From the NCBI RefSeq assembly GCF_041260155.1, contig NC_091947.1, positions 31,770,780-31,834,779 of the forward strand: 64,000 bases of DNA, in the 5' to 3' direction. Shown piece after piece: positions 4,402 through 64,000 of the stretch (position 1 is its first letter; every line of letters starts with the position of its first letter). The translations under genes and the position numbers were made by a program. Source of the stretch: Ptychodera flava. Its lineage: Eukaryota. A model generated the notes under the pieces. It did not search any database, had not been told where the DNA came from, and saw nothing but the letters and a program-made list of their open reading frames with translations.

Positions 4402-6599
4402 AGTGTATGGAATATATGGAAATCAACAGGGCTTAATTGAAACCACCATAACTTGTACTTGAAGTCTTTCTGACAGTCTCTTTTGAGAAACCAGTCTACT
4501 GGACTTTATTTTATTTATCTTTCCTGCCCAAGACTCCTGTGAATCTGTGAATATAATAATTGTTTCCTGTGATGCCTATGTCTGATTAGCTGGCAGGTGT
4601 TCGGACAGATAGGATCTTGTTTGCCTTTTGTGAGAGCTTTGACTGTGGCTGATGCTGATAACCTTGTGAAATGGTGTGTTTTGTAATGAAGCTATGGTCA
4701 GTATTTCACAGTCAACTGGCTTTTCTTTTCGTCTCAATTTTTTAAAGCAATGTAGAAAGAAAGCATCTTCAAACTGCCTCAATGTGCAATATTAAAAAAC
4801 TGTATTTCCCTAAACACCAAATGATAGCTCAACAACACCAGGCCAATCAGAGCAAGCCCCAGAAAAGGTTTATTTACAAATCTTCATATGTGTATTCATA
4901 TATATAGGAATATCCTCAGAGACTGTCCATCTAACCAAAGAAGTTTATTTAACCCCTTATCACTTTAGCATCGACATATGTAACATTGTACCCCAATGCC
5001 AAACCTAGCAGTCTAAATTTGTCATACAAATCGATTGGGTGGTACTATAATTTACTGGTGAATGGGTTTATGCTTGTCTTTGAAAGACAAATGGAAAGGT
5101 GTGGGGTACCTATCAATTATGCAGTCATCGTAAGAGGCAGCGAATAGTTATTGGAACAAAATCGCATGTACTTTTCAGTTTTTAATCTTGCATGTTCAAG
5201 CTAAGATCAGGATGTGAATCTGTCTATTGGTGGAAAATGACTTTGAATTCTGCTTGTTTTGTAGCTCTGTATCTGTGTACCATGTACCATCATTACATCA
5301 GATCTTTATGATTTGTAAGTATTTCCAGAAAAAAGAATTGTAATGATGAGTTAACTTCATACTGACGTCATGAAATAACCATCATTAAACCCATTTCAAG
5401 GAACTTTGCTGCTTTGTTTTCCGAAATTTTTTTGATTTTTTTTATCTCAAGTCAGTCATAAAAGTCAACACACAGGAGATACTATAGTATGAGAATATTT
5501 ATTTGATTTTCAGTTCTTGTGAATTATGAAGATTTACAAAATCACCCAGTAGTATAGGAAAGCATTGAATAGTAAGTTCTGTCACAAACATGAAAGTTAC
5601 CTGAAAGATTATCCTGATCTATTATAGATATTTTAATTTTTTTTTAAGTTTGCCAACTCTAGTATACCTTCAATGAAGTCAAATAAACTGAAATTGTAGT
5701 CTTGTAGTTTTCCACAATTTATTGTCTCATAAATGTATTTGAGAGCTGTCATTTGTTGACAGATATAGTGATAAATACCCCTACTTGTCCTGACCCATTT
5801 TTTGACAAGAAATTTTTCATTACTAGCCATAAGCTAAAATTCCTGTATTATTTAATTTCTATTGTATTCCTATTTCCAGTCTCAGAGTTTTGTTTTATAT
5901 TGATGTGTTACAAGTAATGATAATGCTGATGCCTTGTGTGTTCCACTGATTGCTATGTGGCCTATGTTCAGGTATATTGAAATAGTATTGCAGACATGGG
6001 CTAATAAGCAGCCATTACGAGTCCCTTACCACAATATTGCATCCTACTAAATCCTAGTGTTTTCATAGTGTTCTAAATGAAATAATTCACTGCTGGGAAA
6101 AATGCCAATCTTTTGTTGATCATAAATTATGATAGCAATTCATTACAGACTTCGTCAAATGGTCAACAGTGAGAGAGTTCTCATTGAAGGCTATACCATC
6201 CACACTACTACATTGATGAAAGAAGGGGGGTGTGAAATCAGCCAATTTGCAATACCTAGGTTATATATTATCCTCTATTTGATTATTTTTCAATCACATT
6301 GATCTCGCAGGCAAAATGTTTATAAGCAATGACTGTAATACTCTAATTTGAAGATTTCTCCCTGAAAAGAACAAGGCTAACAAATATGGAGTTAAAGATT
6401 TATTTGAAACTTTCCTTCAATCCCTTGTCCAAAATTCTATAACTCTCTCATTTATTATTGATATCATTTCAGCTTGGCAAGGTGCTGCTATGTACGGTGA
6501 TCATTGCCTTGTTCAGTTATGAATGTTTAGTGCCCTCATGTGTTTTGAAACGTGCAGCTAGCTGTCTTGACAACTTGCTTACTAATAGCCTTCTGTACC

Positions 6600-7010
6600 A
6601 TGTCCCAGGTAATTATTACTGCTCCTTAATCAATATTGCCCTATCATATCATAAGGTTCAATTTGTCCTATGTAATTACCATATGATATCTTGGCATTGT
6701 GTCCTAGGTGCGTGATTATTGCCTTCACAAGTCATATGGTGCTATGTCTTTGTGCATCTTTGCCTCTTCATGTATTGAGATTCGGTGTCATAGTTGATTA
6801 TTGCTCATTAGTGTCAGCAAGTTCAAATGTCTTGGTCATAGTTGCCCTGTCATGAGATACAATGTGCTCACTAGTTATTTTCCTCTCATATTGTCAGGTG
6901 CAGCATTCCAGGTGATTATTGCCCTGTCATTTCATGTGATACAATGTAATTTAGTTACTATTGCCCTCTCATACCTTGAGATGTGCAATATCCCAGGTGA
7001 ATAGTGCCCT
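6600..7010. repeat. Degenerate minisatellite-like tandem repeat
   Basis: Reiterated units of about 60-110 bp sharing the motif CCAGGTGATTATTGCCCTGTCAT...CATGTGATACAATG, occurring six or more times with variation. Confidence 0.45.
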
Positions 7011-9588
7011 CATGTGGTTCAAGGTGAAACTTCCTTCTTCAGGAATGGCATTAGTAATCTATGTAAATTTTGTCATTATGTGAAATTTTGGGTATTACAG
7101 CAGGAAAAGATTTCTGATCCTCTATCACTTCATGTATACATCAGCTTGTGCAGTAAGGAAAAATAGTTCTTTATATTGCTTCAGCTGCTTTTTGCCATTT
7201 TCTAACCATGGTGGTCAGTGGTATCAACAGAGTTTTTTAAGTAGAAAACGTGAAACAACAGACCTTGATAAGTATTTTTGTGATATATTTGGGACAAAAA
7301 AGAACATGACTTTTAATATTGAAAAAGAAACATACTAGTATATAGTTTTAGATAATCTTGTATCTTTTAATGAACAGGCAAACTACACTAAATTCAAAAA
7401 CTGTTGAGAAGAAATGGCTTGTAGATGGGACAAGTAGTTATGAACTAAAATGTGATTAGACTAACTCAGTGCTATTTTTTTTACTACAGTTTGTTTGACT
7501 GATATTTGAACATGTGATATCGAAATTAGTGATGTATCCAAATTGAAATGTACATTTGAAAGGTAGTTGTGCACAGTTCAAAAACTCATGAATTTGAAGC
7601 CATAGTCATGTGAGTTGCACACAATGTGATTGATATAAGCCATCTTCCAATAGCAATGGTTCTACTCTGGAATAAAATGACATGCAATGTCAATACGCCC
7701 AATGCATGGATCACATGATGACGGTACAAACAAACGCACATGTGCAAACGCGACTTGCATTGTGCACATGGTTCTGTTTGTATCATGGTGGATTCGAATT
7801 CCAGGTTTAGTCTGTTTTGCAGATCAAAATCAAATACTTCATTTGAGGGATTCTTCTTTATTGGAAAGTATTGCATCAGTAACTAAAAAATTGTGGATAC
7901 TTTCAGTACACTCCAGAGAAGGCCATTTTCAGGTCCGTGCAGCACTTCTATACCAAATCATTTGCGGATGCAGGGCTTCATTTGATACTGTCATGCCAGT
8001 CTTTACTGTAAAATTTGTTAGATCTGCACTATCCAAGATCTACGGATCAAAGAGACAGAGTCAAAATATCCAAAATGAGTTCTGTTTTCCTGTGAAAAGG
8101 AATCATACTAAATGCCCTATCGTGTATCATCATAAGTTAGTCTCATAAATATAAACTCTTCTGCTAGCTTCAACTCTTTCCCTTTCAATGTTTGATCAAT
8201 TTCTGAAAAGTGTAATCTTTGTGATACAATGCTCAATATGTAAATATGCAGTTCCTTGTGAAAAATTTGATGTTGTGGCTTAGAAGAATGATGGAAAGTG
8301 TAGTTGCAAAGTTAATAAGCCATAGAGATGTGGTGGGTTGCTCTTATGTCCCCTGTATGAGTACCAGCGTTTGTTTGTGAATGTGTTACTGCTAGTCCAG
8401 CAGAGATGTATGGGAGATGCAAATCTGATGTGAAATTTATTGATGCAGTATGTATTTTATTGAATATGAAGAAGAATGTGATATTTTCAATGAGCTGTAT
8501 CTGCTGAGATAGCTTTTGAGCTGATAATTGATGTTTTTTCAGTGTTATAAATGAATTAAACTGAATGTGTTTTGGTAAAGGCCACTCTATAGCTTCAAAT
8601 CCTTCTTTGTAGTTGCCAAAGTGACATTGAGATTTAATAGTTTCTTTTGAACTCAAAACTAACTTTTATGGTAGTTTTTGGTTCCAAAAAGACTATCTTG
8701 AGAAGGTGTATGCAATTTCCACTCTGTTCATTTCTGTGAAATGTACAAGTTAATTCATCTGTCGTAGGAAAAATGCTTTGAAATTGAAACAGCAGCAGGT
8801 ATTGATAGTACATTTACATTGTCAAATCTGGGCTTCCTGTTAGTTTGTTTTGTTCAGTACTTGTACGTCACGTCATGCCTGGTTCTAAATAATTCATGGA
8901 GAATAGTTGTAATTTGTGAATTTTCTGAAATAAAAACTTTTCAAGACTTCAAAGAAAGCATAGAATTCACTGAAATGTGCTGGTTGACTCTCATGACTTC
9001 TTGGCTATGATTCTTCACCCTGCATTTATGAGTCTCACATGTTTGAGCTAAAAATTTTCAAAATTTGCTGTACCTGACAATGCAGTATTTACACACCTGT
9101 TTCCTATGCTGTAAATTTGACAGCCATTTCACTTCTGATCACTTGACTGCTCTCCCCATCAAGACAACTTTGTATGATTCTTCAGAAAGTGAAATCCAAG
9201 AGACAGAACTTTATTCTTGTGGACATTTTCAATGTTTGCAGAATTAAGGAGTTTTCTAACATACTGGTATTTTAAAGGTATACAGTCACCAGTAATCTAA
9301 ATATGCCCTTATATGGTCAAAGGGGCGTTCCTTAGTATTCAAAATTCCCATGTGAGGGCGCTGTTTTTAAAAAGCGGCCAGTCGCTTAAAATCAATGATT
9401 GGTTAGATTTTCTCTTTCCATGGTAACTGTGGCACAATTGGAACAGCCCTTACGAAAAAATATGGCTTCTGGCACATAGTTGTGCATGCTAACCCACAAT
9501 AGTTGTGGATACCAAGCTGCAACTGTTTGTGGCTTATAAGCAGGTTATTCATATTTTATCATGCAAAGATCTGTTCTGGCACAGTTTT

Positions 9589-9703: not shown

Positions 9704-10956
9704 TAAAAGGTTTCATGGTAAAATGCTGCTATGCATGCTTCCTGCGCTACCCCCCCTCCCCAACCATACCTGCATTTGTACCTACCTGTTTTATACTAGC
9801 CAGGAGATTACCATACACTTCACATCTTCATTTTGTTTTAAGGGACAGTAGCTGTAACTTATGATGTTGCTCTTTTAACTTTTGTGCGTTGAGGTAACTT
9901 TTCACTTTACTCACTTGGCAAAATAGGCAAAAATCAAGACACATAACAGTATAAAAATACTGCATAAAAATTAAGTTACAGCTACTGCCTTTTAAACCGC
10001 CTACTCACATATGCAAACAAAAAAAAACACTTACCACATATCTTCACGATAATACCCCATTGTTTATTTTGATATGTAAAACAATGATGTTGGTACACTA
10101 GGCTGGACCACTAAGAAATTAAAATAAAATCAAAATTCAATAATCTAATGAGGTTCATGTGAAAAACATAACAGAACACGTCTAAAAGTCTGCATTTGAT
10201 TTTCACATTATCCAAAGTTGTTTTCGATGCCATCCTAATGTTTACGATCTTGTTCTGAAACTTCAGATTGAATGTTCCTGTTGATCCTTGATCCATTGGT
10301 CTGTTCAGCTTCATGGCCTTTGCCCATACACTGAGAATAAAAATGATAAATAACAGACAAGGATATTATTACATGTGCAAAGTGAAATTGCTTGTATTTT
10401 GTCGACTACCCTTATAATATATTTAATACAAAAATTCACGGAAAAGAGCATTCATGTGCTTGAAAGAAATTATAATAATTAATATTAAATAATTTACCAA
10501 TGATACAAACTCATGACATATCTATACATTATGTTATTGTGATTACCAAATCATTGCTTTTCAGCCTCATTTTCACTATTTACTTGTGACACACCACTCC
10601 AAACTACAACTATTGACCAGCGGTGATTGAGTTTCAGCACATCTCAAACAGAAGAAATGTAAATGGAAAACTGACTCATAAATTGTTTTAAAACAAAAAG
10701 TATCCCTTTATAATAGCGCAGTGCACGGTTACAGGTTTGTTACTAAATATACCGTAGCTGTACGCGCGCAATATCGGACACGCAGCTTGAAATGCGGACA
10801 AATTTTATCAATGTTGCATACATTGCTGTTTTTGCAGCTTGTACTCTGAGTCGTGGATATGCCTATTGGTATTCATTGTTACACTACTAGCAGTTAGCCC
10901 ACTAAGTTGTATTTTCGTCGTTCTTGCATTCGTAATTTTCAAAAGCGTAATCTAAA

Positions 10957-11015
10957 AATGCGGACGATGCTGTGTGTTGGCCGCTACAGCTAACACACAG
11001 CATCGTACGCAAGGC
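10957..11015. mobile_element. Hairpin MITE family, truncated copy
   Basis: CGATGCTGTGTGTT..loop..AACACACAGCATCGTACGCAAGGCT shares the arm motif of the 12945-13045 element. Confidence 0.4.
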
Positions 11016-11212
11016 TAGCGAGAGTTGCCGACATCGACGGTTATTTACGAGAAGTGAATAAAAGACTGGCATTTTTGGAAGCGATCGAGTAGCTGAGGTA
11101 GGCAGGGATACGACTTGGGCCCAAGAACGCTGAATTTCGGCAGTAATTTGGCTTTTTGCATCAAGTCCCAAAATGGATTTGAAGTCACCGACCCTACCTA
11201 CGCTACGGGTCT

Positions 11213-11279
11213 TTGCAGGGCTGTGGTGAGCGGGGCGATTAACTGTAGCGGAACACACAGCATCGTACGCGTAGGGCTA
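11213..11279. mobile_element. Hairpin MITE family, partial or rearranged copy
   Basis: GCAGGGC + TGTGGTGAGCGGGGCGATTAACTGTAG + CGGAACACACAGCATCGTACGCGTAGGGCT. The loop is the reverse complement of the loop in the 12945-13045 copy. Confidence 0.4.
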
Positions 11280-11780
11280 CCAACCTCCATGATTAACTAC
11301 CGGTATATTATTTTTGCCAATACCGTACGTTCATTTGGCATACTTGAACAGGGTTCGCCAAGAACAACATCAATATAGCACGACCAAAGACAGTGAAAAC
11401 TGCGAAAATTATAGAGACAACTCGTGGTGTTGAAATTACTTACCGAATTTTTAAACGATCTGTAGCTCTTCGATCAAACTATGGGTGTGTCCGTGACCGT
11501 TGTTCTTCGGGACGATATCTCGGTCTCAGAATCGGTCATCCAAGGGCCATCAACGCATCGCAAACGCTGTTTGTTGGTTTTAAATTCATAGCTAACCTTT
11601 ACGTACCCTGAATGATAATGTCCTACGGTAATTTTACGCTAAACTGTACAAAAATCAGAGCGAAAAAACGGCGACGATATACTCCTCGCTCAAACGTCCT
11701 AACGGCCTACCAGTGCATATCAGATTTAATTTGCCGCTCAGGATTTGACCCATGACCTTTTGGCAATCTGACCAATCATA

Positions 11781-12358
11781 GGGTGCGTTTGGGCGCACTG
11801 TTCTCGACACGAGAACGGTGCTCGGATGTGCCGAGCGCGCTCGATTCTCTTCGCTACATTTCCGGAAATAGCCGATCTTCGTTCCGAGAACGAAGAACAC
11901 AACCCTGGTCTGATCCGGGAGCAGACGAGAACAAGATGGCGGAAACCAGCCGCGCGAAATGAAAATGTCAGTGCTATGTTGCTATTGTATGAAAAACGTC
12001 TCAGGATACAAGTCGAGATGGGTGAATTATTATTACAAGTTTAATCTTTCCAAACATTTGATGTTTTTTCGTTTTTGGAGAGTTGTCGAAAATTTTTGAG
12101 AGTAAACTGTTGTACAAATGTACAACAAACGTCTTCAACGTAATATTTTGGTAAAGCTGATGTATGAACGATGATTAAAATATAGCGAAACAGGATTTCC
12201 TTCGTGAAAGTTGTCTGTTGCCGTGACTATAATCACATTTGTACCAAGTTCTGCCAAAGCGAGGCTGTGTCGTTTGGTCGTCAAGAACAAGAACAGCTAT
12301 CGGAAGCTCGCCCTCGTCGGATGTTCTCCTGACGAGAACGGTACGCCCAAACGCACCC
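11781..12358. mobile_element. Tourist/PIF-like MITE of about 578 bp nested in the composite element
   Basis: Perfect 15-bp TIRs GGGTGCGTTTGGGCG / CGCCCAAACGCACCC. They are flanked by ATA on both sides (tcATA|GGGTGCG ... GCACCC|ATAaag), consistent with a 3-bp TSD. Subterminal inverted motifs TTCTCGACACGAGAACGGT are present. Confidence 0.6.
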
Positions 12359-12944
12359 ATAAAGAAATGTTCACATGATCTACAACAATCTGACCAATCA
12401 TAAAGAAGTCTTCACATGATATATGACATCATCAGGCGTGATTCTAGAGTTCCGGGTTCAAAGTCTGTTCTGACCCACGCATTGTTTCAGCAAGCAGCTT
12501 GATCGATCTCGAGCGAGCTAAGCTGCATGCGACTTCGAGCTTGCGTTTGAAAACCAAAACGACACAAATACATGGGAATAACCTTTCTAGATCAACACAA
12601 AACTCTACAAAAACGGCTCCGACATAGCAGTCTCGTGACTTACAAACTTTGCCCGACGATGACTTTCATCGCGCACGTCCGTATTTTGAAGCCCAGCGTG
12701 ATCACTATGAAACTATGCGTACATTATTATACGCTGGGAAAGCTTTACCGTACGTACCTCCATGCCGTACGTACGCTTTCAAGACCTACTCCGTACTTGC
12801 AGTTCATTTAAAACCCGCGTGTGAAAAGGGCGTAAGAAAACACAAAAGAACAAGATATACGTTATTTTTGAGTTGCAGTTCTTTGAAAGACTAGTCTTTT
12901 CAAGGGAGATATGCACGTGAAATAAGTTCATTATACGTCGATAT

Positions 12945-13045
12945 TAGCCCTGCGTACGATGCTGTGTGTTCCGATCCGCTACAGCTAATCGCCCCGCTCA
13001 CCACAATTAGCTGTAGCGGAACACACAGCATCGTACGCAGGGCTA
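12945..13045. mobile_element. Hairpin MITE family, intact copy of about 100 bp with a 10-bp target-site duplication
   Basis: TIRs TAGCCCTGCGTACGATGCTGTGTGTTCCG / CGGAACACACAGCATCGTACGCAGGGCTA are perfect 29-bp arms. The inner loop is itself palindromic (CTACAGCTAAT...ATTAGCTGTAG). Direct repeat ACGTCGATAT lies immediately adjacent on both sides (12935-12944 and 13046-13055). Confidence 0.7.
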
Positions 13046-15987
13046 ACGTCGATATATGGTTCGCCAGAGTTAATATTTTGCAAAGCTTTTTTTCTGTAGA
13101 AACAGTTACGCTGTCAGTGAGAACCAATCATTTGCAAAACGTACATAAAAGTCAGTGATTGATTTATTGCACCGATCAAAGTCAAATGGTAGTTTTTCAC
13201 ACAATTTGTTGAAAATCAAAGGTTTCCCGCTGTGCCAGCTGTAGTGTCACTGTCAATGGATATCTCATCTAAGAATGCGTGATCAAGTGGAGTGTCAACT
13301 CAATGTTGTGGCTTATAGTGAGCAATATCTTGCTCAAACTGTGTTTATTTAAATATTTTAGCATATCTGCCACAAAAGATTTGACTGATTGTCTCTGTGT
13401 GCCTGTTAAGTGCCTCTAGTGGCACATATCGGCACATAATGAAAAATAAGTTCTGGCAGCCTTTTTTGTGTGTAGCTTATAAGCCGCAAGACAGTGGGAC
13501 ATATGCCACAAAAAAAAATTTTCGTAAGGGAGGTGACAGTATACCTTTAAAGTCCAGCCAGTCACATTCCTGTGCATTCTTTACGTGTTGATCAAAAAGT
13601 AGTGACATTGTGAAGGTTTACCAAGAATATCAGATGTCAAATTGTACTTGACACCATAAAGATCCCTCAGAAGACATCAGCCAAGAAATCTTGAAAGTGT
13701 GAAATTATGATATCATGGCCATCATAGACCAATTTAATTAAATTTAATTACTTGCTTACAAGGTGTGTATATTTTTCTGAAGCCTGAAGAAATAAATGTA
13801 TCCATGGATAATGTATGTTACTGTTGGCAGGATTGTATCGGTTTGATTGACTCAGAGAATCAACATTTGTGGCTTGGCTGTACAGAACTCACAGTACCAT
13901 TCTATTGATTGTGTCAAAACCATGGAAATGGCCCAAAATGTAACTTTTGATAAAGATTTGTTGTAAATGTATAGGACAATGCTAACAGGGATATTTTCAA
14001 GTGGGAGATGGGGCTAACACTATTTTGCCTCTGTGACAACCAGCTGATTGTCTGGCTTCACATTTTTAGTAGACTTTACTATTGTTTGAGAAACCAACAG
14101 TAATCTGACCAAAATGTCAGGAGTATCTAGGTCCTTTTATTCTGATTTGATCAAAAATTACTTCAATTTGCCACCTAACAGTCACTGAAATCACTTCATT
14201 GCAGTTCAACTATTATTTATTTCAGTAGTGATAAGGAAAGATACACTGCAAGTTGTTCCCTGCATAGAGGTCCATTTTGAGTACAGCAATGGAATATTCC
14301 CAAGAAATGTGGAAGTGTTCATCTGCCATTCACTCACTGACAGTCCTTTCAACAGAGAATGTACTGTGTATTTTATGAATGATAATCCTGTGTCAAGGAT
14401 TTCTTGTAAAAATTTTTTTTAACTCATTACCTCAATATGTTCCTTTGAGGAATTTCCCAATTTTGCATTCAACTGTATTCAATATTATCGATTTGGTTAC
14501 TTGAGTCAATAACTTCCTTTTAACATCATAAATGTTTACTGCAATATCTAATTGGATATTGAATGCAGTGGGATCCTGCATCTATAGAGCTTGGCTGGAC
14601 ATGGTTCTGGGTGCTAGGCTTGTGTCTGGCTCACTTGAGTAATTTTATTTCACATGAGTCTAGCGCCCTCTAGGACTGTGAAACTCTGATAAGCTTTTGT
14701 GTACCATAATGCAGCCAATAGGTTATGTATGACTGTTTATTGTCACCACCATTCTACAAACTGTTGTCTTCGTGCTACTACAAGAAAGTCACTGAAAACA
14801 CAGTGGCTACTTATCAGATATGAGCAAACACATGAAAGATTATTTTCATCTAAATTTTATTCTACAAAAAGGTTTATAGACAACGTATCTTACAGCAAAT
14901 AAGTTTGGAGTCCACGCATGATAACATTAATACATGTACATTCATAACACTGTAGTCACTACTTAGTCTAGTGTATGCATCTTCAGTGAATTATTATGGC
15001 ATATTGCTTTACGAATAATATATCCAAAACAATGCCGTCATTTATTGACAGGCACATGTCAGTTTGACTTTGCTTTAGCGACTGTCACAGATTGTCACAT
15101 AGGTTCAACAGCCAAATTTTTTTCATTGAGATCAAGCTCCCTTAAACAAAAACTTCAATCAAAGGAAGTGTTGATGTTGTCCATCAAGTAAAATGTAACA
15201 CTTTGCTGTAGCTTTCAATAATATGCCCAAGGCATTATGAAGTCATTAAGTAATCAGCATAACCATGGAGTTGTTTTTCAGGTCCATGGTGTAATTGATT
15301 AACTATGTGGTTGCCAAGATGAGTGCAAAAGCGAAGTTCAATAATCGAACGGAGTTAAAATCCCCTCCTTAACCATCAAATTTTGCTGTTTGAATTTACG
15401 TGACAATCTGAGACAGTCCCTTCATGTTGGACATTGGGGCAAATGTGAGACATGTTGTTGGCATTTGGACCTTGTGCCTTCAGCATTGGCATGCTAGAAT
15501 TCATCACAAACATCACAGTCTATTTGATGTACTTCTGATATGTCAATCAAGTACAAAATGACACTGAAAACATCAGCAAAGATCATTCAAAAATGTAACA
15601 GACACAAAAGTTGTTTAATTAAGAAAGAGTGTTTGTTGAAGAATGCATCTGACACATTTATTCCTTGCTGGTATAATGCTGTTTCTACATCAATTCAATT
15701 GCTCAAATGATAATATTGAGATATTACAAAAATCAGAGACATTAATATAATCAATAACTACCCCTATGCAAATTCAAATTTCCACCTACAAATTAAAATT
15801 AAATCAATCAGGAGAATAAAGAAAGAGCTCCAAGCGAAGAGTAATTTGATAACAGTCAGGAACACAATGCAACCACTCTCTATGTCCTGTTTGAACCTCC
15901 CTCATGGATCAATGTTCATATTTCTGGCAGTTTGTTGCAAGGGTAGAAAAACTACATTTCAGTTTGTGACCAGCTGACAAGCCTTGA

Positions 15988-31743: not shown

Positions 31744-32241
31744 TCCAGCTGAAGAGCACAACACTAGAGTAGCTGTCTTTTGTGTAGCGTGTATTGGCAT
31801 GTATAGTGCGTCCTCGTAAATGTGACCTTTAGTTCCGTGACCTCTCGGCTCTAGCCATGCCTACTTCCTGCCCTGACCTCGCTATGCTTACTGTACTTAT
31901 ACAGTAAACACAGCGACGTCTGTATGCATGGCCAGTAGGCATGGCCAGAGGAATTGGCTAGAGGTTACGGAACTAAAGGTCGTATTTAAACATGATCACA
32001 TTCCCCATTGAGGGCGCACTATACATGTCAATACTGACCTCGCTATGCTTACTGTACTTATACAGTAAACACAGCGACGTCTGTACGCATGGCCAGTAGG
32101 CATGGCCAGAGGAATTGGCTAGAGGTTACGGAACTAAAGGTCGTATTTAAACATGATCACATTCCCCATTGAGGGCGCACTATACATGTCAATACAAGCT
32201 ACACAAAAGACAGCTACACAAGTGTTGTGCTCTTCAGCTGG
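31744..32241. mobile_element. Foldback MITE with a tandemly duplicated right arm, in an MVP intron
   Basis: The outer arms CCAGCTGAAGAGCACAACACTAGAGTAGCTGTCTTTTGTGTAGC at 31744-31787 and its reverse complement at 32198-32241 pair with each other. The inner arms pair as well (...GTGACCTTTAGTTCCGTGACCTCT.GGC...CCATGCCTAC against GTAGGCATGGCCAGAGG...GGAACTAAAGGTCG...). The right half is present as two tandem copies of about 150 bp, at 31880-32030 and 32031-32195. Flanking TAAT/TTAAT is present. Confidence 0.65.
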
Positions 32242-48049: not shown

Positions 48050-48991
48050 GGGACCGTTCAGTTTTACGGCCGGGGGGGGGGGGGGGGGGGGGCGGCAAAA
48101 TCTTGTCGCCGGTGTTCAAAAAAATGATGACCCCCCTGCATTTTTCGCGAAAAAATGATGACCCCCCCTTTGTCAGACGAAAAATTTGATGACCCCCCCC
48201 CCCCCGCTGAAAAATAACCAAAACCCATATGTCAAATTTACCTGCACGGTTTGGATTTGAACTCCGGTACGCGGCGCACTTTATTCGTGTAGCAGAGATG
48301 CCAGTGTACAAACTTCTCAGCCACATCCATGCAAACGTCTGTTAATTAGGACTACTGTAGGGCAATTTTAACTTCATTTCCACAGACAACTTATGTCCAT
48401 GGACATTGTATAAAATAAACTTTATTGGAGTGGTTCGCCAAAGGCAGCCCTCTGGTTAAGAGGGTCATGGGCCATTACGTAAAGTAAACTTTATTCTAGT
48501 GGGCACCAAAGGTGGCCCACTGGTAAAAGAGGGTCGATCATGGCCATTGCATGAAGTAAACTTTACTGAACAGGGCCGCTGAAGGCGTCCGGCCGTTAAG
48601 ATGGTCATGGGGTATTACAATAAAGTAAATTTATTGTAGTGGGCCGCCGCAGGCGGCCCGCCGGTAAAGAGGGTCGATCATGGCCATTGCATGAAGTAAA
48701 CCTAATTGGAGTGGGCCGCCAAGGCGTCTGCCCGCTGAGAGGGTCATGGGTAATACATAAAGTATATTTATTGTATTGGGCCGCCGAAGGCGGCCCGCCG
48801 GTAAAGAGGGTCAATCATGGCCATGGCAGAAAGTGGACTTTATTGTAGGTATTATGTTTTTGAAAATGTGGTGACCCCCCCTTTCCTACCAGTGAAAAAG
48901 TGATGACCCCCCCTTCTTGGATTCCAAATTATGATGACCCCCCCCTGGATTTTGCCGGCCCCCCCCCCAGCCGTAAAAACTGAACGGTCCC
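48050..48991. mobile_element. Tourist/PIF-like non-autonomous element of about 942 bp with homopolymer G/C tracts and an internal satellite array, in ENPP intron 2
   Basis: TIRs GGGACCGTTCAGTTTTACGGCC(G)n..GGCAAAAT / ATTTTGCCGGCC(C)n..GCCGTAAAAACTGAACGGTCCC. TTA lies on both flanks (taTTA|GGGACC ... GGTCCC|TTAat), a 3-bp TSD. Three subterminal direct repeats AAAA.TGATGACCCCCC(C) occur at each end in the same orientation. G runs of about 20 and C runs of about 13 are present. Confidence 0.65.
48400..48840. repeat. Internal tandem array of the 48050-48991 element, a higher-order repeat of about 140 bp repeated about 3.5 times
   Basis: Alternating units of about 77 bp and about 65 bp: ...TAAAGTAAACTTTATT.TAGTGGGC.CC..AGGCGGCCCGCCGGTAAAGAGGGTCGATCATGGCCATTGCATGAAG / TAAAC.TAATTGGAGTGGGCCGCCAAGGCG.C.GCCCG.T.AGAGGGTCATGGG.ATTAC. 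Each unit has a GGGCCGCC..GGCGGCCC palindromic core. Confidence 0.6.
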
Positions 48992-49214
48992 TTAATTTAA
49001 CCTTGAACTAAGGCAGACTTTTCTAACCCCGAAAACTCTAACACTTTTAGATAGGTTCTTGGCAAGTAGGAATTTGAAAACTATATTTTGACATTTGACA
49101 ACTTGACTTCACTTCACTTTTTCCGTAGAGACAGTTTTTAAAAAATCTTTACAAGTTCAATTTTAGGATGATATTGCAAAAATCGAATGCAAACTATGAA
49201 AGATCCATTCTTAC

Positions 49215-49951
49215 CGCAAATATCTCCCATCCCTCATCACAAACTATTAGTATCGGTTGAATTCGTCTGTTGTTTCGATAGTGCCAGTGCTCTGGGATGT
49301 CTTCCTTCAAGTACACCGTTAAGTTAGGGTGTTTTCCATTCAGGCTGTTGTATACATCCATGATTTTGTTTTCAACGGGGAGGATATTCATGACGGGACC
49401 AAACTCAGTTACCAGCTTGACGTCACCAGGATCCACGTAATCGTAAAGGTCAAGGTTGTTGCTGGTGGGTGTTTCTGCCATTCCATGGTCAGCAGTGATG
49501 ATAATGTTAACGCTGTCATAAATACCTGCTTCTGTGAATCTTTCAGCCAGGTAACCGAGGAGCTCGTCCAGCTTTCGTATCTCTTCGGTCGTTTCCGGAG
49601 AGTCATACCCTTGTTCGTGACCATAGCCGTCCGGTTCATCAAAGTATAGAGCGATGAAGTCAATATTTTCTTCGGTGAACCATCGAACCACTGTATCCAC
49701 GCGAGCTCTATAAGGATGACTTTCATTGTATTTTAACCAAATATCTGGATCATATCCACCGTTTGTAGCTGTCTCTCCCCCAATCCAGAAGTAGGAGGCA
49801 CTACGCCCTCCTTGCTTTGAAACCGTTACCCATACGGGCTCTCCACCGTTGTCCCACCATATAGGATCTTTGTTGGACATAGCAAATGTCGCATTGAGGA
49901 CGGGGTCGTACATTCTGTTGCCAACAATTCCATGGCTCTCCTGGTACAAAC
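49215..49951 (-). CDS. ENPP4/5-like coding exon 2, a 737-nt exon
   Basis: Encodes (G)LYQESHGIVGNRMYDP...YFWIGGE...IDFIALYFDEPDGYGHEQGYDSPE...IIITADHGMAE...NLTVYLKEDIPEHWHYRNNRRIQPILIVCDEGWEIFA. The metal-binding and catalytic motifs of type I phosphodiesterase/nucleotide pyrophosphatase are conserved, against ENPP5 LFAENHGIVANDMFDP...YWEDPDDMGHHLGPDSP...IITSDHGMT. Acceptor ctcatag|, donor GCG|gtaaga. Confidence 0.85.
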
Positions 49952-59551: not shown

Positions 59552-59617
59552 CCAGGTTCCTGGAGTTGCCAGTGTAGTATACATAGACAGAACTACACTG
59601 GCAACTCCAGGAACCTG
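59552..59617. repeat. Perfect 27-bp-stem palindrome 23 nt upstream of the candidate thioredoxin ATG
   Basis: CCAGGTTCCTGGAGTTGCCAGTGTAGT - 13-nt loop - ACTACACTGGCAACTCCAGGAACCTG. Confidence 0.7.
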
Positions 59618-61338
59618 TGGTTCAAACTAAGATCTTCAACTTAGTCAGTGAAGTGGAACTTGAGACTCTCTTCACTGGCTGTACGTCTGTAGTACGCGTC
59701 TCGATTCAAATTCATTCTGTATCCTCACAGCTAAAGGAGTAGAGAACAGCCTGTCTTTCAAGAATTATTGCAAGTTGGACATTTGCCGACCACTCTTCGC
59801 GTTTTCAACTAAATAAAAACACAACTACGGATCTGACGAATACTGGTGAAAGTGACACTTTTCCACCGTATATTATCGTCATATTAGTGTTGGCCTCAAA
59901 AGTCCCGGAGTCATTGCCATAAAAATAAACACACTGTCACACACTGGTATCATACATATGTGAAATGACAATAAGTTCCCCCTCCCCCCCAAAAAAGATT
60001 GTTTCTTGTCATCGAGCGCGTCATTTCAGAACCTGCGCGTTATGTCTCTTTTTGGTTACGTACTCATCAGTACAGCTATCCTTGATATCCCCGTTGCATA
60101 TCAAAAATGTTAAAAAGAAAACGGAAGTATTATGCAGTCAGTGATAAAAGACAATAACTGTAGCATCAATAGTGCCTAACCAGCATTGCTATGTAAAAAA
60201 AAGAAAGAAAAAAAGAAAAAAACCGTCTCGCCGCATCAGTTTTGCTGAATGTCAAGGACCAGAACCAATTTATTTGGCCTAATATTGAGTACAATAATAT
60301 TCGATAACATATAGATATCATTTACTGCAACGTCCATTGGGCGAATTGTGTTGTCATAATGCCATAAATCGACGCCATCGTCACACGTTTGCCAAGACGA
60401 TCACGGCCAGACAGAGTGCTCTACATGCTAAACGGCTCGCCGACCGGACAGGACCGGACGCGTGGCAGATTATGCCATCGTGTGTACTCGATGATAACAT
60501 TAATTATATCATTGAAAAGTGATATTTTACGTGATTTTATACATGTATCTTCCTGTTTTTATAAAACTAACAAGCAACCTGCAAGTATGTTGACCAAAGG
60601 CCAAAGCAACTGATGTAAAACAAAAGAATGTTTTTACGTTGTTGTTTTTATCCCATGGAAACCGCATTCCGATGTTGAATATGTATAATGTAGTCAAACA
60701 TTTACCCCCGCGCGTTCGTTTGCAATTTCGCAACGATGAATGGCGTTGTGCATAAATTGTGCATAAACTGCGATTTTACATTTGTGATGCTCCAGGGTTG
60801 CCGTTGCGTTCAATGGCTCTAGCTCTAGATGAACGTCAAGTGTTTCAACGTCAGATAATCAGCCGCTCCAAGGACATGTAGTCATTGTTGAGTGCAAAGA
60901 AGTCCTTCCGCCACGAATTTACATTGAATTTTTGTATTATAATGGCTAGGGATTTAGTTTCACTTTTTAAACGCTATATTAGAAATTTTTCACTGAAGTG
61001 GTAAAGTGACTGGTTGGGAAATCTGTAGGTGTGGAACTCATAACCCTATTACAGTAAGGCTAGCACCGAACAGCAATTAAACGGTTATGGGAAAATACGA
61101 GAGAGTTGAACAAGGCCACCTGTAACTGTCATAACCTGGCTTGGATCATTGACAGTAGAAGCGCATTAGTTGTGCGGTATATCTGTAAATTTAGAACGAT
61201 GACAACGAAATAAGCTTATTCAACCATTATCTCACTTCTACCGCCTATGCATATGACCTACCTACCACTGAAGATAAATTCAGTCATAGTCGGTTAAAGT
61301 TCTATACACGGCGAAGGCCGCCTTTCAGTGGCCTTCGA

Positions 61339-61431: not shown

Positions 61432-62213
61432 CCACAAGCGACGTTGAGTTTAGTTACATCACAGCTGGCTGGACAAACCACAGGTATGGAAACGTGTTGC
61501 ATGCAAAACATCTGGAACAAATGCGGCCCCTCTGAAGTTGGAGGCTGGCAACCAACACAACGATATGTATGATACATTACCTTGGTTTCAACAACGGTGG
61601 CCATGATTGACAAGATAGAATAGCACTCCTAGTCTTTAAGAGTAGTTTCTGATAACTACTACGGGTTAACAAGACTTTTATAGTCTGACAAAACGAAAGA
61701 GGTAGGCTGCTGACGCCGCTAATTGGATGACAGAGGAAAACCCTAGTCATGCCATGGTACTACCTAGGCACGTGGAAAATATTCGCAAACTTACCAACCG
61801 GTATCCCACGGCGGTGGCCTTGAGGGCGAACGTTTCAACTTGTAGGGGAGGGCCCGTAGAATTTTGGAACAGAACATTCTTCTGCCATGATAAAAATTTG
61901 CTAGCTCTGTCTACGGGTACAAAAATGTATTATTTCGAACCTGTCTACGGGTACAAATGTATTATTTCGAACCTTTTCCGTGATTTCCCTATCACTTCAC
62001 TAATTTAGTACATCCTATCTTTTCAAGACTGATCGAGGCCTTCCCGGGAACATTAAAAAATCTTAAATATTTATAATTTTTTTTCTTGACAAGCAGTTTA
62101 TCTTTCTAAATTTTCGATCCTCCATTAAAAATATTCACTACAACCTTATTTCCCTGCGCCGTGAAATTATGTCGTCAGAAAAGGCAAAATACGATATTTG
62201 AACATCAACGCAC

Positions 62214-62556
62214 TGATATGAAGTTTTTCTGGTATGTTCAATATGTACTGATATGAAGTTTTTCTGGTATGTTCAATATGTACCGATATGAAGTTTTTCT
62301 GGTATGTTCAATATGTACTGATATGAAGTTTTTCTGGTATGTTCAATATGTACTGATATGAAGTTTTTCTGGTATGTTCAATATGTACTGATATGAAGTT
62401 TTTCTGGTATGTTCAATATGAAGTTTTTCTTGTATGTTCAATATGTACTGATATGAAGTTTTTCTGGTATGTTCAATATGTACTGATATGAAGTTTTTCT
62501 TGTATGTTCAATATGTACTGATATGATGTTTTTCTGTATGTTCAATATCTGAAAAG
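62214..62556. repeat. Minisatellite, 35-bp unit repeated about 10 times
   Basis: The unit TGATATGAAGTTTTTCTGGTATGTTCAATATGTAC is repeated head to tail with point variants (C/T, GG/TG) and one truncated unit. Confidence 0.85.
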
Positions 62557-64000
62557 TCAGTCCCAGAGTCAAAGCAAACATGCACATTTCGTGTGATATG
62601 GTTTGAACTATTTGATACATTTAGGGGTCTGGAAGATTGAATTGGAACATTACTTTTTCTCCCTGCTTTACTTGGAATTTTTTCAACCGTGCCAATTCCA
62701 ATCCTGATCTGGCAACTTTTCTTTTCACCTTACCTCCCAGAGGAATCTTTTTAGTCGCGTGCATGCACGCAAAAAAAAATACCAGAATAATTGTTCTCTT
62801 TGTTGGGATTTTTTTCTTTACAAAACTTTACACTGTTATTGACAAGCTATGGTAAGCTTGGCCCATATAATTGTAACGACAATGAACAGCCGATATCCAG
62901 TGCAGGCTATGTTGACAAGCTGAATTGAGTATTCAAGTATGTTTTAGGGAGAATCTGAAGCAGAAGCAAATCAAATAAAGAATACTACTAAATGAGTCCA
63001 ACTGAACAAAATGTGTACATGAAAAACAAAAGGAATAGTATGAGTTAAAATATTAATCATAAGAGGGCGTGAAGATCTGATGAAAAAGCATGAAGTCTGC
63101 TTAAAATGGTACGCCAGAGGACGCTGAATATGAAAAGTAACTGCCGGTGCATAATTAAGCTTATGTTTTCAAGTCTATTTGCAATCTTTTTTATTTGATT
63201 TTTATTTTACTGCCATCCTTGGCTGGATTTTGTTTTCAGAGGTATTACCTCTTGGAATCTCCCCCAAAATCATGAAGACGCCCCCCCCGACATTAAATGG
63301 TCCCCCCTAAAGCGGTGGTCTAGGTACCTATTTCAAATGAGTTACAAAAATGACTGACATACGGGGCCCTTGTTTGTCATGACTCACTTTCACTTGTCAG
63401 GACGACGCGGAAGCGAATCGATTAATTACGTAATGTCTAAATTAAGGCAGGTAGAATCATGTCGTCAGTCATAAACTATTTGCCAACGTTGGCAATATTG
63501 ACCTGATCGTTACAGACGTCGTGACTGCGCCCCGGACAGCCAATTTGCAATATACCCAGCGATATCATGTGCCACACACACAATTAGCTCATTAATTAGC
63601 GAAACATTTGGTCAGATGTGAAGTGTGTCTCTCTTGCTGTTATCAGCGCGACCATTTCCTGTGTCAAAAGTTGTGAAATGTAAACACATCTCCTGGTACA
63701 AATCATTTCTTTCAGGGGGTGGCTGCTCACGGTAATAACTTCGAAGTGGTAAGAATAACACAAAATTTTACATAAAATACAACACTGCTAATAAAGTATT
63801 TCTTTTCTACAAATACCGTTTCTTTTCATTTTTATAAGACCAAAGTATTGTAAGATTGAAATGCTATACGCGTTTCGTTAGCTCCCAAACCTCCTGCATT
63901 ATGGTTTCTTCCAAACGAGAAATCCACTAAGCGGTCGTCAGAATTCGTGGCGGTAAAAGTTGAGTTGAAAAACTTTCGCCTTTCTGTTCGGCATCATCCG

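What the first reader, a model, noticed from the sequence alone, without database searches (positions are those of the whole stretch)
48050..48991. Intronic Tourist-like element combining homopolymer G/C tracts, direct subterminal repeats and a palindromic-core satellite array
It has 22-bp TIRs (GGGACCGTTCAGTTTTACGGCC) and a TTA/TTA target duplication, which is PIF/Harbinger-like. Immediately inside each TIR is a G20/C13 homopolymer. Three copies of AAAATGATGACCCCCC(C) occur at each end in direct, not inverted, orientation. The centre is a higher-order array of about 140 bp repeated about 3.5 times, and every unit carries a GGGCCGCC..GGCGGCCC palindrome. The G runs and C runs can form G-quadruplex or i-motif structures on the respective strands. 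The C-rich side is on the ENPP coding strand, in intron 2. This architecture is unusual for a MITE and is a classic source of sequencing or assembly artefacts and of replication or transcription pausing. A spurious poly-Pro ORF (48003-48326) arises from the G tract.
Basis: seen in the sequence. Interest (0 to 1): 0.5.

Follow-up and report, generated by a model that had tools for sequence, protein, structure and literature searches.

The report
Satellite-carrying Tourist-like transposon in intron
A 942-bp non-coding "cut-and-paste" transposon relic of the PIF/Harbinger (Tourist-like) type, carrying a short internal satellite array, sits harmlessly in the middle of an intron of an acorn-worm (Ptychodera flava) ENPP5-like gene; it is a nicely preserved but essentially ordinary kind of repeat.

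Summary
The element is real and its boundaries (48050-48991) are exact. It has a TTA/TTA target duplication and inverted termini that are perfect for 16 nt and meet the published PIF/Harbinger end definition (G(N)5GTT plus TTA/TAA); 0.01 such elements are expected by chance in the window. It also has six same-orientation AAAATGATGACCCCCC motifs phased at 31-32 bp, and a central array of six ~70-bp monomers plus a stub, arranged as A/B dimers of ~140 bp.

Several details need correcting. The left tract is G21. The right tract inside the TIR is C10, not C13. The right TIR has one indel and one mismatch. The perfect palindrome occurs in only 2 of 6 monomers. On the gene's sense (minus) strand the tracts are mostly G-runs, not C-runs.

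The window is Ptychodera flava. The element occupies 52% of intron 2 of an ENPP5-like gene, 220 bp and 629 bp from the splice sites, and the annotated protein is reproduced exactly.

Best reading: a non-autonomous PIF/Harbinger-type element with an internal satellite. Tandem-repeat-containing MITEs and PIF/Harbinger derivatives with internal arrays are already documented, so the architecture is not unusual. Copy number, autonomous partner, G4 effects and pausing could not be tested. Interest is low.

The parts
48047..48049 (.). Left copy of the 3-bp target-site duplication (TTA)
   Evidence: Read directly; required by the formal PIF/Harbinger end scan.
48050..48102 (+). Left extended terminal inverted repeat: GGGACCGTTCAGTTTTACGGCC (48050-48071), then G21 (48072-48092), then CGGCAAAATC (48093-48102)
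   Evidence: I3, I6, I8; G x21. The first 16 nt are perfectly inverted-repeated at the right end. The G(N)5GTT motif is present.
48115..48205 (+). Left subterminal array: three direct ~31-bp units, each with motif AAAATGATGA/AATTTGATGA plus a C-run (C6, C7, C13). Motifs lie at 48121-48136, 48152-48168 and 48183-48205.
   Evidence: D3-D5; period 31. Motif identity is 0.88 and spacer identity 0.26, equal to the random level.
48206..48411 (.). Unique, non-repeated internal segment of about 206 bp
   Evidence: No repeat found in it and no match elsewhere in the window. The tRNA-like appearance on the minus strand was rejected.
48412..48858 (+). Internal satellite array: six ~70-bp monomers plus a 29-bp stub, alternating A type (48412, 48553, 48693) and B type (48481, 48622, 48759), giving a dimeric higher-order unit of ~140 bp. 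GC-rich hairpin or palindrome cores are perfect at 48641-48659 and 48778-48796.
   Evidence: B-B identity is 84-92%, A-A 70-74%, A-B 66-79%. Hairpin dG is -11 to -14 kcal/mol for B monomers and -7 to -8 for A monomers.
48859..48946 (+). Right subterminal array: three direct ~31-bp units in the same orientation as the left array. Motifs lie at 48865-48881, 48897-48913 and 48928-48945 (C7, C7, C8).
48948..48991 (-). Right extended terminal inverted repeat: GATTTTGCCGG (48948-48958), then C10 (48959-48968), then AGCCGTAAAAACTGAACGGTCCC (48969-48991)
   Evidence: The reverse complement reads GGGACCGTTCAGTTTTTACGGCT-G10-CCGGCAAAATC.
48992..48994 (.). Right copy of the target-site duplication (TTA)
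47418..49214 (-). Host intron 2 of the ENPP5-like gene (1,797 bp, GT-AG). The element occupies 52% of it, 220 bp from the donor and 629 bp from the acceptor.
   Evidence: Exons 52503-52278, 49951-49215 and 47417-47088 reproduce P0001 exactly. Pfam Phosphodiest E=5.5e-65. P0001 is 100% identical and annotated ENPP5-like [Ptychodera flava].
48003..48326 (-). Spurious 107-aa ORF whose poly-Pro run is the translated G21 tract
   Evidence: No Pfam family. No homologue for any reading frame of the element among 5.8 billion protein clusters.

Best explanation
This is a single insertion of a non-autonomous, non-coding DNA transposon of the PIF/Harbinger superfamily (a large Tourist-like element). It carries an internal satellite array and lies as a passenger in intron 2 of the Ptychodera flava ENPP5-like gene.

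Shown. The element has precise ends with a TTA target duplication. Its long (~44-53 bp) inverted termini begin with the superfamily-typical G(N)5GTT motif and include a G/C homopolymer. It has no coding capacity. It is GC-rich (50%) in an AT-rich intron (33%). The host gene still splices to an intact protein.

Inferred mechanism. A DDE transposase supplied in trans by an autonomous Harbinger cut the element at its TIRs and pasted it into a TTA site. The six 16-nt AAAATGATGA-C6+ motifs are phased three helical turns apart, and they are conserved (88%) while the spacers between them are randomised (26%). They are the likely binding sites for the Myb/SANT/MADF-type partner protein that recruits the transposase, as the Myb-like protein of zebrafish Harbinger3_DR does with its 9-bp subterminal motif. 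The central ~70/140-bp array most likely arose or expanded inside the element by replication slippage or unequal exchange, helped by the hairpin-forming GC-rich cores. The homopolymers are ancestral parts of the TIR whose lengths (G21 vs G10) have drifted by slippage. In its present place it probably does nothing for the host.
For: - Ends: the TTA/TTA duplication and TIRs were read directly. The terminus is unique, with 0 expected by chance.
- Formal end scan: requiring TTA/TAA, G(N)5GTT and a >=11/14 TIR match finds only this element (14/14), against a mean of 0.01 in 200 Markov controls. That criterion comes from PMC2213677, whose example TIR GGGTCCGTTTGGTTC resembles GGGACCGTTCAGTTT.
- TIR length is within the 25-50 bp typical of animal Harbingers (PMC9179366), and 80-bp TIRs are reported in C. 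inopinata (bioRxiv 10.64898/2026.05.26.728016).
- The homopolymer is present in inverted orientation at both ends, so it is a true element feature.
- Motif versus spacer conservation is 0.88 vs 0.26 (random 0.25), with 31-32 bp phasing.
- Subterminal binding by the Myb-like protein is described in PMC9710019 and PMC2836001.
- No coding capacity. No tRNA or Rfam family.
- GC content is 0.498 in the element vs 0.327 in the intron flanks.
- The Glandiceps ortholog's intron 2 is only ~0.3-0.4 kb and lacks the element.
- Gene model: the exact reconstruction of P0001 across the intron shows that the model's splice junctions lie in this sequence. I did not check whether that model has transcript support.
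- Internal tandem arrays in PIF/Harbinger derivatives and in MITEs generally are documented in PMC2213677, PMC3879986 and PMC12628747.
Against: - Only one copy could be examined. No other copy, no autonomous partner and no empty site were seen, because no further P. flava DNA was reachable. There is no second copy in the 64-kb window.
- Superfamily assignment from TSD plus TIR of a single insertion is suggestive, not proof.
- At 942 bp the element is larger than classical MITEs.
- All six subterminal motifs point the same way at both ends. The Medicago PIF/Harbinger elements with subterminal repeats at both ends have them in opposite orientation (PMC2213677). The end architecture is therefore asymmetric, and the binding-site inference is untested.
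- No transposase ORF lies in the window.
Confidence: 0.75

Rival explanations
1. Composite or nested origin. A short Tourist-like shell (TIRs plus C-tract subterminal repeats) secondarily acquired its interior, meaning the 206-bp unique segment and the 447-bp satellite. The acquisition would be by capture of a pre-existing genomic satellite or by insertion of another repeat, rather than by in-situ tandemisation. Mobility would still be by PIF/Harbinger transposase.
For: The interior is bracketed by two ~90-bp direct arrays of the same motif, an arrangement that could mark a recombination or gap-repair junction. Capture of pre-existing tandem repeats by MITEs has been proposed for Xenopus miDNA4 (reviewed in PMC12628747). 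The A and B monomers are already well diverged (66-79%), which suggests an array older than a recent local expansion.
Against: There is no target duplication or terminal structure of a second element around the interior. No satellite copy exists outside the element in the window or in metagenome contigs. One copy cannot separate this reading from in-situ origin.
Confidence: 0.15
2. The element belongs to a different DNA-transposon superfamily that also makes about 3-bp duplications (AcademX, EnSpm/CACTA, Zator) or nearby sizes (Tc1/mariner TA, piggyBac TTAA). The TTA would then be coincidental.
For: TSD length alone is not unique to one superfamily. AcademX elements in animals make 3-bp TSDs and EnSpm 2-4 bp (PMC7165386). 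With a single copy the TWA preference cannot be shown.
Against: Academ termini have a pyrimidine at the 5' end (PMC7165386), whereas this element starts with G. No CACTA terminus is present. A piggyBac reading needs TTAA and CCC...GGG ends, but the left flank is ATTA and the ends are GGG...CCC. A TA-duplication reading needs an asymmetric extra base. The G(N)5GTT motif and the TTA both fit PIF/Harbinger (PMC2213677).
Confidence: 0.06
3. The element has been co-opted, or at least has a measurable effect on its host gene. G-runs on the sense strand, the template-strand G21, six sense-strand AATAAA signals and stable hairpins could modulate transcription elongation, splicing or premature polyadenylation of the ENPP5-like gene.
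For: G4Hunter flags G21 on the + (template) strand, and G13 and G8+G10 on the sense strand. Six AATAAA lie on the sense strand inside the element. The element folds strongly, with z = -7.0 as DNA and -8.8 as sense RNA.
Against: Only G21 satisfies a canonical intramolecular G4 pattern; the other runs are 24 nt or more apart. The element is mid-intron, 220 and 629 bp from the splice sites, and the annotated mRNA splices across it to give a full-length protein collinear with orthologues. There is no conservation evidence, since the element is absent from the Glandiceps ortholog. No expression data are available here.
Confidence: 0.05
4. Not a transposon: an assembly artefact or a local palindromic rearrangement produced the inverted ends and homopolymers.
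For: The published P. flava chromosome assembly is PacBio CLR (MARVEL) polished with Pilon (PMC11175523). In such an assembly the exact lengths of a G21 or C13 run and the monomer number are unreliable.
Against: An artefact would not create a precise TTA duplication flanking 16-nt perfect inverted termini with a superfamily-typical motif. It would also not produce the same homopolymer in both TIRs or diverged A/B monomers.
Confidence: 0.03

Closest known systems
PIF/Harbinger non-autonomous elements and Tourist-like MITEs (e.g. mPing; Medicago MtPH families, especially MtPH-A6-4 with 60-bp tandem repeats)
   Same: It shares the 3-bp TTA/TAA target duplication and a TIR of >=14 bp starting G(N)5GTT (compare GGGTCCGTTTGGTTC). 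It has no ORFs. It carries tandem repeats in subterminal and internal regions. Dependence on a transposase plus a Myb-like partner that binds subterminal motifs is presumed (PMC2213677, PMC2836001, PMC9710019).
   Different: The host is a hemichordate. At 942 bp it is larger than classical MITEs. The TIRs contain a long G/C homopolymer. The subterminal motifs have the same orientation at both ends, whereas MtPH-A6-4 arrays at both ends are in opposite orientation. No partner element or other family member has been seen.
[quoted passage not shown]
   Same: It has the same modular plan: flanking 'cassette' modules with inverted repeats, a central array of a few core repeats of ordered variants, simple-sequence tracts, and a palindrome within core repeats proposed to drive copy-number change (PMC3879986).
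   Different: Those elements have a conserved AA dinucleotide putative TSD, short (10-20 bp) terminal and subterminal inverted repeats, a tetranucleotide microsatellite adjoining the array, and ~160-bp core repeats. Here the TSD is TTA, the TIRs are long and truly terminal, the simple sequence is a homopolymer inside the TIRs and subterminal motifs, and the monomers are ~70 bp in A/B dimers. It works alike as a satellite carrier but is not a member.
MITE-satellite systems in Xenopus (Xstir, miDNA4) and the foldback element Tetris of Drosophila virilis
   Same: These are TIR elements whose interior holds a variable satellite-like array and which can seed genomic satellite DNA (PMC12628747, PMC4079207).
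   Different: They belong to different superfamilies (Tc1/mariner-type or foldback) with different TSDs. Whether the P. flava ~70/140-bp repeat exists as free satellite arrays is unknown.

Membership tests
PIF/Harbinger superfamily (Tourist-like non-autonomous element) | 3-bp target-site duplication, TTA or TAA (TWA) | tested here: met
   TTA at 48047-48049 and 48992-48994. Only one insertion was seen, so the preference itself is not shown.
PIF/Harbinger superfamily (Tourist-like non-autonomous element) | Terminal inverted repeats of >=14 bp containing the G(N)5GTT motif (criterion of PMC2213677) | tested here: met
   GGGACCGTTCAGTT matches 14/14 between the ends (16/16 in the relaxed scan). 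It is the only such element in 64 kb, against 0.01 expected.
PIF/Harbinger superfamily (Tourist-like non-autonomous element) | Non-autonomous: no transposase or Myb-like ORF inside | tested here: met
   The ORFs have no Pfam family. A six-frame translation has no homologue at E<=10 among 5.8e9 protein clusters.
PIF/Harbinger superfamily (Tourist-like non-autonomous element) | A related autonomous element in the same genome with matching termini, encoding a DDE_Tnp_4 transposase and a Myb/SANT/MADF protein | not testable with these tools
   There is no transposase domain in any window ORF of >=75 aa. P. flava loci are not on record for retrieval.
PIF/Harbinger superfamily (Tourist-like non-autonomous element) | Multi-copy family: the same termini recur at other loci with their own TWA duplications | not testable with these tools
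   The element is a single copy in the window. There are no hits in the metagenome or viral collections. The one prokaryote hit is a lone 22-mer in a Treponema MAG, consistent with about 0.5 expected by chance. These collections do not contain the P. flava genome.
MITE in the strict sense | Small size (usually below about 600-800 bp; threshold from my own knowledge, not checked in a paper) and high copy number | tested here: inconclusive
   The element is 942 bp, of which 447 bp is the expandable array; without the array it is about 495 bp. Copy number is unknown.
pearl / DTC84 / DINE-1-type tandem-repeat MITE-like elements | Conserved AA dinucleotide as putative TSD | tested here: not met
   The flanks are TTA/TTA. 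Definition from PMC3879986.
pearl / DTC84 / DINE-1-type tandem-repeat MITE-like elements | Central array of up to about five core repeats adjoining a tetranucleotide microsatellite on one side | tested here: not met
   The central array is present, with 6 monomers or 3 dimers. No microsatellite adjoins it. The only simple sequence is G/C homopolymers in the TIRs and subterminal motifs.
pearl / DTC84 / DINE-1-type tandem-repeat MITE-like elements | Palindrome within each core repeat | tested here: inconclusive
   The palindrome is perfect in 2 of 6 monomers and present as a variant in a third. The A-type monomers carry degenerate versions.
Higher-order-repeat satellite | Monomers of alternating subtypes, with same-position monomers more alike than neighbours | tested here: met
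   B-B identity is 84-92% vs A-B 66-79%. TRF period 140 gives 83% matches vs 69% for period 69. The A-A signal is weaker, at 70-74%.
tRNA-derived SINE module (considered for 48230-48330, minus strand) | tRNA-like fold with A and B boxes | tested here: not met
   ARAGORN finds nothing in that segment even at relaxed thresholds; its two -ps80 calls fall elsewhere in the element. There is no Rfam tRNA hit at E<=10 in a 661-nt search. A-box matches with 2 mismatches occur nine times in the element.
piggyBac | TTAA duplication and 5'-CCC...GGG-3' termini | tested here: not met
   The left flank is ATTA, the right flank is TTAA, and the termini are GGG...CCC. The defining features are from my own knowledge.
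AcademX | [quoted passage not shown] | tested here: not met
   The TSD length fits, but the element begins with G and ends with C.

The most novel reading that the evidence does not exclude
The element may represent a hemichordate Harbinger lineage with an unusual, asymmetric end architecture. Its long TIRs contain an obligatory G/C homopolymer, and a phased (31-bp), same-orientation array of C-tract motifs lies at both ends, giving one inverted plus three direct units on the left and four direct units on the right. These would be the recognition platform for its Myb/MADF partner. The element would also be the vehicle that seeds a ~70/140-bp hairpin-bearing satellite family across the P. flava genome.
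Probability: 0.12. Interest if true: 0.35.

Novelty: new member of a known kind. Interest (0 to 1): 0.2.

Why it matters
It matters little for general biology. It is one more example of the link between DNA transposons and satellite DNA, here in a hemichordate, a phylum whose repeats are barely described in the literature I could search.

Practical value:
- It is a clean seed (TIR, 31-bp unit, 140-bp dimer) for annotating a P. flava repeat family and finding its autonomous Harbinger partner.
- The contrast between the conserved motif and the randomised spacers gives a concrete candidate binding site for a Harbinger Myb/MADF protein. Such sites have been defined experimentally only for zebrafish Harbinger3_DR.
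- The G21, C13 and C10 tracts and the array flag a spot where assembly lengths should not be trusted, and where ab initio ORF callers produce a false poly-Pro protein.

Tried and rejected
- tRNA/SINE origin of the unique segment 48230-48330 (minus strand; A-box-like TGGCTGAGAAG, B-box-like AGTTCAAATCC). Rejected: ARAGORN finds nothing there, there is no Rfam tRNA hit at E<=10, and A-box-like matches are common by chance.
- Any known RNA family in the satellite. Only sub-threshold hairpin matches were found.
- Fetching other P. flava loci through paralogues P0003 and P0004 and through P0001 itself. None is on record.
- TIR scans. Metagenome contigs gave 0 hits and viral contigs 0. Prokaryote genomes gave 1 hit, in a Treponema MAG. 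It is a lone 22-mer in bacterial coding-like sequence with no G tract and no other similarity, and about 0.5 hits are expected by chance, so it was rejected.
- Satellite core scan in metagenomes: 0 hits.
- Six-frame concatenated translation of the element against 5.8e9 protein clusters, to catch exonised or mis-called copies: nothing at E<=10.
- Transposase ORFs in the window: none. Only ENPP, MVP/Vault, WD40 and longin domains were found.
- Second copy or relic in the window: blastn-short found nothing. A look-alike at 63249-63316 scores above background under lenient scoring but not under stricter scoring, so it is left as inconclusive.
- Literature search for the terminus string gave only an unrelated Drosophila primer paper. 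The primary paper on Harbinger3_DR binding sites (PMC2290759) is not held, so that point rests on secondary citations (PMC9710019, PMC2836001).
- I ran no further search on HARBI1-like transposases. P. flava loci cannot be retrieved, so hits could not be linked to these TIRs.
Full report
**1. What is in the sequence.**

Reading 47800-49250 confirms an element bounded exactly at 48050 and 48991.

- The three bases outside each end are TTA (48047-48049 and 48992-48994).
- The left terminus is GGGACCGTTCAGTTTTACGGCC. The reverse complement of the right terminus is GGGACCGTTCAGTTTTTACGGCT. The two are identical for the first 16 nt and then differ by one extra T and one mismatch.
- The left 22-mer occurs nowhere else in the 64-kb window, with 0 expected from shuffles.
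- Inverted similarity continues inward through a homopolymer. This is G21 on the left (48072-48092) and C10 on the right (48959-48968). It extends to CGGCAAAATC / GATTTTGCCGG. The true TIRs are therefore about 53 and 44 bp, and the homopolymer is part of them.
The left tract is G21, not G20. The C13 (48193-48205) is not next to the right TIR; it belongs to the third left subterminal repeat.

**2. Subterminal repeats.**

Six copies of about AAAATGATGACCCCCC lie inside the element, three at each end. All are on the + strand, with spacings of 31, 31 and 32, 31 bp. Six are observed at <=3 mismatches against 1.3 expected, and none lies outside the element.

A test that works on a single copy compares the motif with its spacers. 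The 16-nt motif has mean pairwise identity 0.88, or 0.80 without the C-run. The 12 nt following each C-run have 0.26, the same as random 12-mers from the element at 0.25. Conserved motifs at a fixed three-helical-turn phase, separated by randomised spacers, fit constrained protein-binding sites better than a recent slippage product.

The inner TIR segment (ATTTTGCCGG followed by a C-run) resembles the same unit. The right end therefore carries four units in one orientation, and the left end carries one inverted unit followed by three direct ones.

**3. Central array.**

TRF reports period 140 (2.8 copies, 83% match) and period 69. Dissection gives six full monomers and a 29-bp stub between 48412 and 48858.

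- A-type monomers (69, 69, 66 bp) alternate with B-type monomers (72, 71, 71 bp).
- B monomers are 84-92% identical to each other, A monomers 70-74%, and A against B 66-79%.
- The array is therefore a dimeric higher-order repeat of about 3.2 units.
- The perfect palindrome GGGCCGCC-N3-GGCGGCCC is present in only two B monomers (48641, 48778; 0 expected by chance).
- The third B monomer has the variant GGGCACC/GGTGGCCC, which still forms a stem. The A monomers have degenerate versions.
- Predicted DNA hairpins are -11 to -14 kcal/mol for B monomers and -7 to -8 for A monomers.
- No tRNA gene and no Rfam family matches the array or the 206-bp unique segment. A tRNA-like impression of 48230-48330 was tested and rejected.

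**4. Context.**

The large ORF at 49194-49949 (-) is a Phosphodiest domain (E=5.5e-65). It is 100% identical to 'ectonucleotide pyrophosphatase/phosphodiesterase family member 5-like [Ptychodera flava]' (P0001).

- Exons 52503-52278, 49951-49215 and 47417-47088 on the minus strand, joined at GT-AG sites, reproduce P0001 exactly.
- Intron 2 is 49214-47418 (1,797 bp). The element makes up 52% of it and lies 220 bp from the donor and 629 bp from the acceptor.
- The element is 49.8% GC in an intron that is 32.7% GC.
- The orthologous locus of Glandiceps talaboti shows the same ENPP-MVP neighbourhood. Its intron 2 is only about 0.3-0.4 kb and has no similarity to the element.
- The gene is on the minus strand, so its sense strand and pre-mRNA carry the subterminal tracts as G-runs (G6 to G13) and only the G21 as C21.
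- The 107-aa poly-Pro ORF (48003-48326, -) is real as an ORF. It has no family, and no reading frame of the element has any homologue among 5.8 billion protein clusters. 'Spurious' is justified.

**5. What it is.**

The Medicago survey of PIF/Harbinger elements gives an explicit operational definition: TIRs of at least 14 bp containing G(N)5GTT, followed by a 3-bp TTA or TAA duplication. One of its example TIRs is GGGTCCGTTTGGTTC (PMC2213677).

- This element's terminus G-GGACC-GTT-CAGTT fits that definition.
- I coded the definition as a scan of the whole window. It returns only this element (14/14 TIR match), against a mean of 0.01 in 200 Markov-chain controls.
- TIR lengths of 25-50 bp (PMC9179366) and even 80 bp (bioRxiv 10.64898/2026.05.26.728016) are normal for animal Harbingers.
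- Alternatives fail on tested features. piggyBac needs TTAA and CCC...GGG ends. AcademX makes 3-bp TSDs but has a pyrimidine at the 5' terminus (PMC7165386). No CACTA terminus is present.

The best reading is a non-autonomous PIF/Harbinger-type element.

**6. How it most likely works.**

PIF/Harbinger transposition needs a DDE transposase and a Myb/SANT/MADF-type partner. For zebrafish Harbinger3_DR, the partner binds a 9-bp motif in the subterminal regions and recruits the transposase (PMC9710019; PMC2836001).

By analogy, the phased AAAATGATGA-C6+ motifs are the candidate partner-binding sites. The transposase then cuts at the TIRs and inserts at TTA. This step is inference, because no partner element could be examined.

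The array probably expands and contracts by slippage or unequal exchange, promoted by its hairpin cores. This has been argued for DTC84, where each core repeat carries a palindrome (PMC3879986), and in the TE-to-satellite literature (PMC12628747).

The unequal homopolymers (G21 vs G10) in otherwise matching TIRs are what slippage would produce. Their presence in both TIRs argues they are genuine. Exact lengths in a PacBio-CLR/Pilon assembly (PMC11175523) should still be treated as approximate; I did not confirm that the window comes from that particular assembly.

**7. Structure-forming potential.**

- G4Hunter (window 25, threshold 1.5) flags G21 on the + strand, which is the template strand for the gene. 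On the sense strand it flags 48178-48221 (G13) and 48937-48984 (G8 plus G10).
- Only G21 satisfies a canonical G3+N1-7 pattern. The other runs are 24 nt or more apart.
- The whole element folds far better than shuffles, with z = -7.0 as DNA and -8.8 as sense RNA. This is expected from long TIRs, complementary G/C tracts and palindromes.
- Six AATAAA lie on the sense strand within the element.
- None of this shows an effect on the host. The annotated mRNA splices across the element to give a full-length protein collinear with orthologues.

**8. What could not be done.**

- P. flava loci are not retrievable with the contig look-up.
- The DNA collections available are viral, metagenomic or prokaryotic. 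They gave no hit except a lone 22-mer in a Treponema MAG, which is explained by chance at about 0.5 expected and has no other similarity.
- Within the window there is no second copy and no transposase ORF.
- A C-tract look-alike at 63249-63316 aligns to the right subterminal region under lenient scoring (41 vs a maximum of 35 for random window segments). It does not survive stricter scoring and remains inconclusive.

**9. Comparison and novelty.**

The claim that the architecture is unusual for a MITE does not hold.

- Tandem-repeat-containing MITE-like elements are an established category: pearl, DTC84, DINE-1, Xstir, miDNA4 and Tetris.
- This element is not a member of the pearl/DTC84 group. 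The AA TSD and the microsatellite adjoining the array were tested and not met. It works like that group as a satellite-carrying cassette.
- Three features are mildly distinctive: the homopolymer embedded in long TIRs, the same-orientation phased motif arrays at both ends (Medicago elements with arrays at both ends have them in opposite orientation), and the hemichordate host.

I classify it as a new member of a known kind, with low interest (0.2).

**10. Verdict.**

The architecture and coordinates are exact, but several numerical and strand details are wrong.
The PIF/Harbinger-like assignment, the intron-2 location and the spurious ORF hold. 'Unusual' does not hold. The structural and functional consequences are untested.
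- Confidence in the main explanation is 0.75, limited by having a single copy and no autonomous partner.

Noticed in passing
window 47799-47977: A second MITE-like element lies in the same intron, about 70 bp left of the studied element. It is a near-perfect foldback with 82-nt arms (91% complementary) and a 13-nt loop. It gives only sub-threshold Rfam hits to long miRNA-precursor hairpins. No other copy exists in the window, and the TSD is unclear (possibly TAAAAG).
   Followed up: partly
window 45210-45367 and 45870-46030: Two copies (92.5% identical) of another self-complementary foldback element (~67-nt arms) lie about 500 bp apart, downstream of the ENPP5-like gene. They show that foldback MITE families are multi-copy in this genome.
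   Followed up: partly
window 63249-63316: This C-tract motif look-alike reads TCTTGGAATCTCCCCCAAAATCATGAAGACGCCCCCCCCGACATTAAATGGTCCCCCC followed by TAA. It resembles the right subterminal region and terminus of the element under lenient alignment scoring, but not under stricter scoring. It may be a decayed end of a related element. Other isolated C-runs lie at 46533-46543 (C11), 9750-9756, 43531-43537 and 59984-59990.
   Followed up: partly
window 59553-59617: A perfect 26-nt inverted repeat (CAGGTTCCTGGAGTTGCCAGTGTAGT) with a 13-nt loop. Its nature is unknown.
   Followed up: no
window 31873-32195: A 161-bp unit duplicated in tandem (2.0 copies, 99% identical), which indicates a very recent duplication.
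   Followed up: no
window 62212-62548: A 35-bp minisatellite (9.9 copies, 91% match) with nested 95- and 130-bp higher-order periods.
   Followed up: no
window 43451-43640: A cluster of GC-rich short inverted and direct repeats built on GGCCGAC / GTCGGCC motifs. It may be another small repeat family.
   Followed up: no
L001 (Glandiceps talaboti OZ203279.1) 5467-8501 and 10001-13419; window Vault-domain ORFs: The ENPP5-like gene neighbours a major vault protein gene in both P. flava and Glandiceps, so microsynteny is conserved. Glandiceps carries two tandem ENPP5-like copies with the same three-exon structure and much shorter introns.
   Followed up: partly
window 48285, 48426, 48495, 48635, 48772, 48844 (minus strand): Six AATAAA hexamers lie on the gene's sense strand inside the element, five of them contributed by the satellite monomers. 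They are potential cryptic polyadenylation signals within intron 2, and no expression data are available to test them.
   Followed up: no
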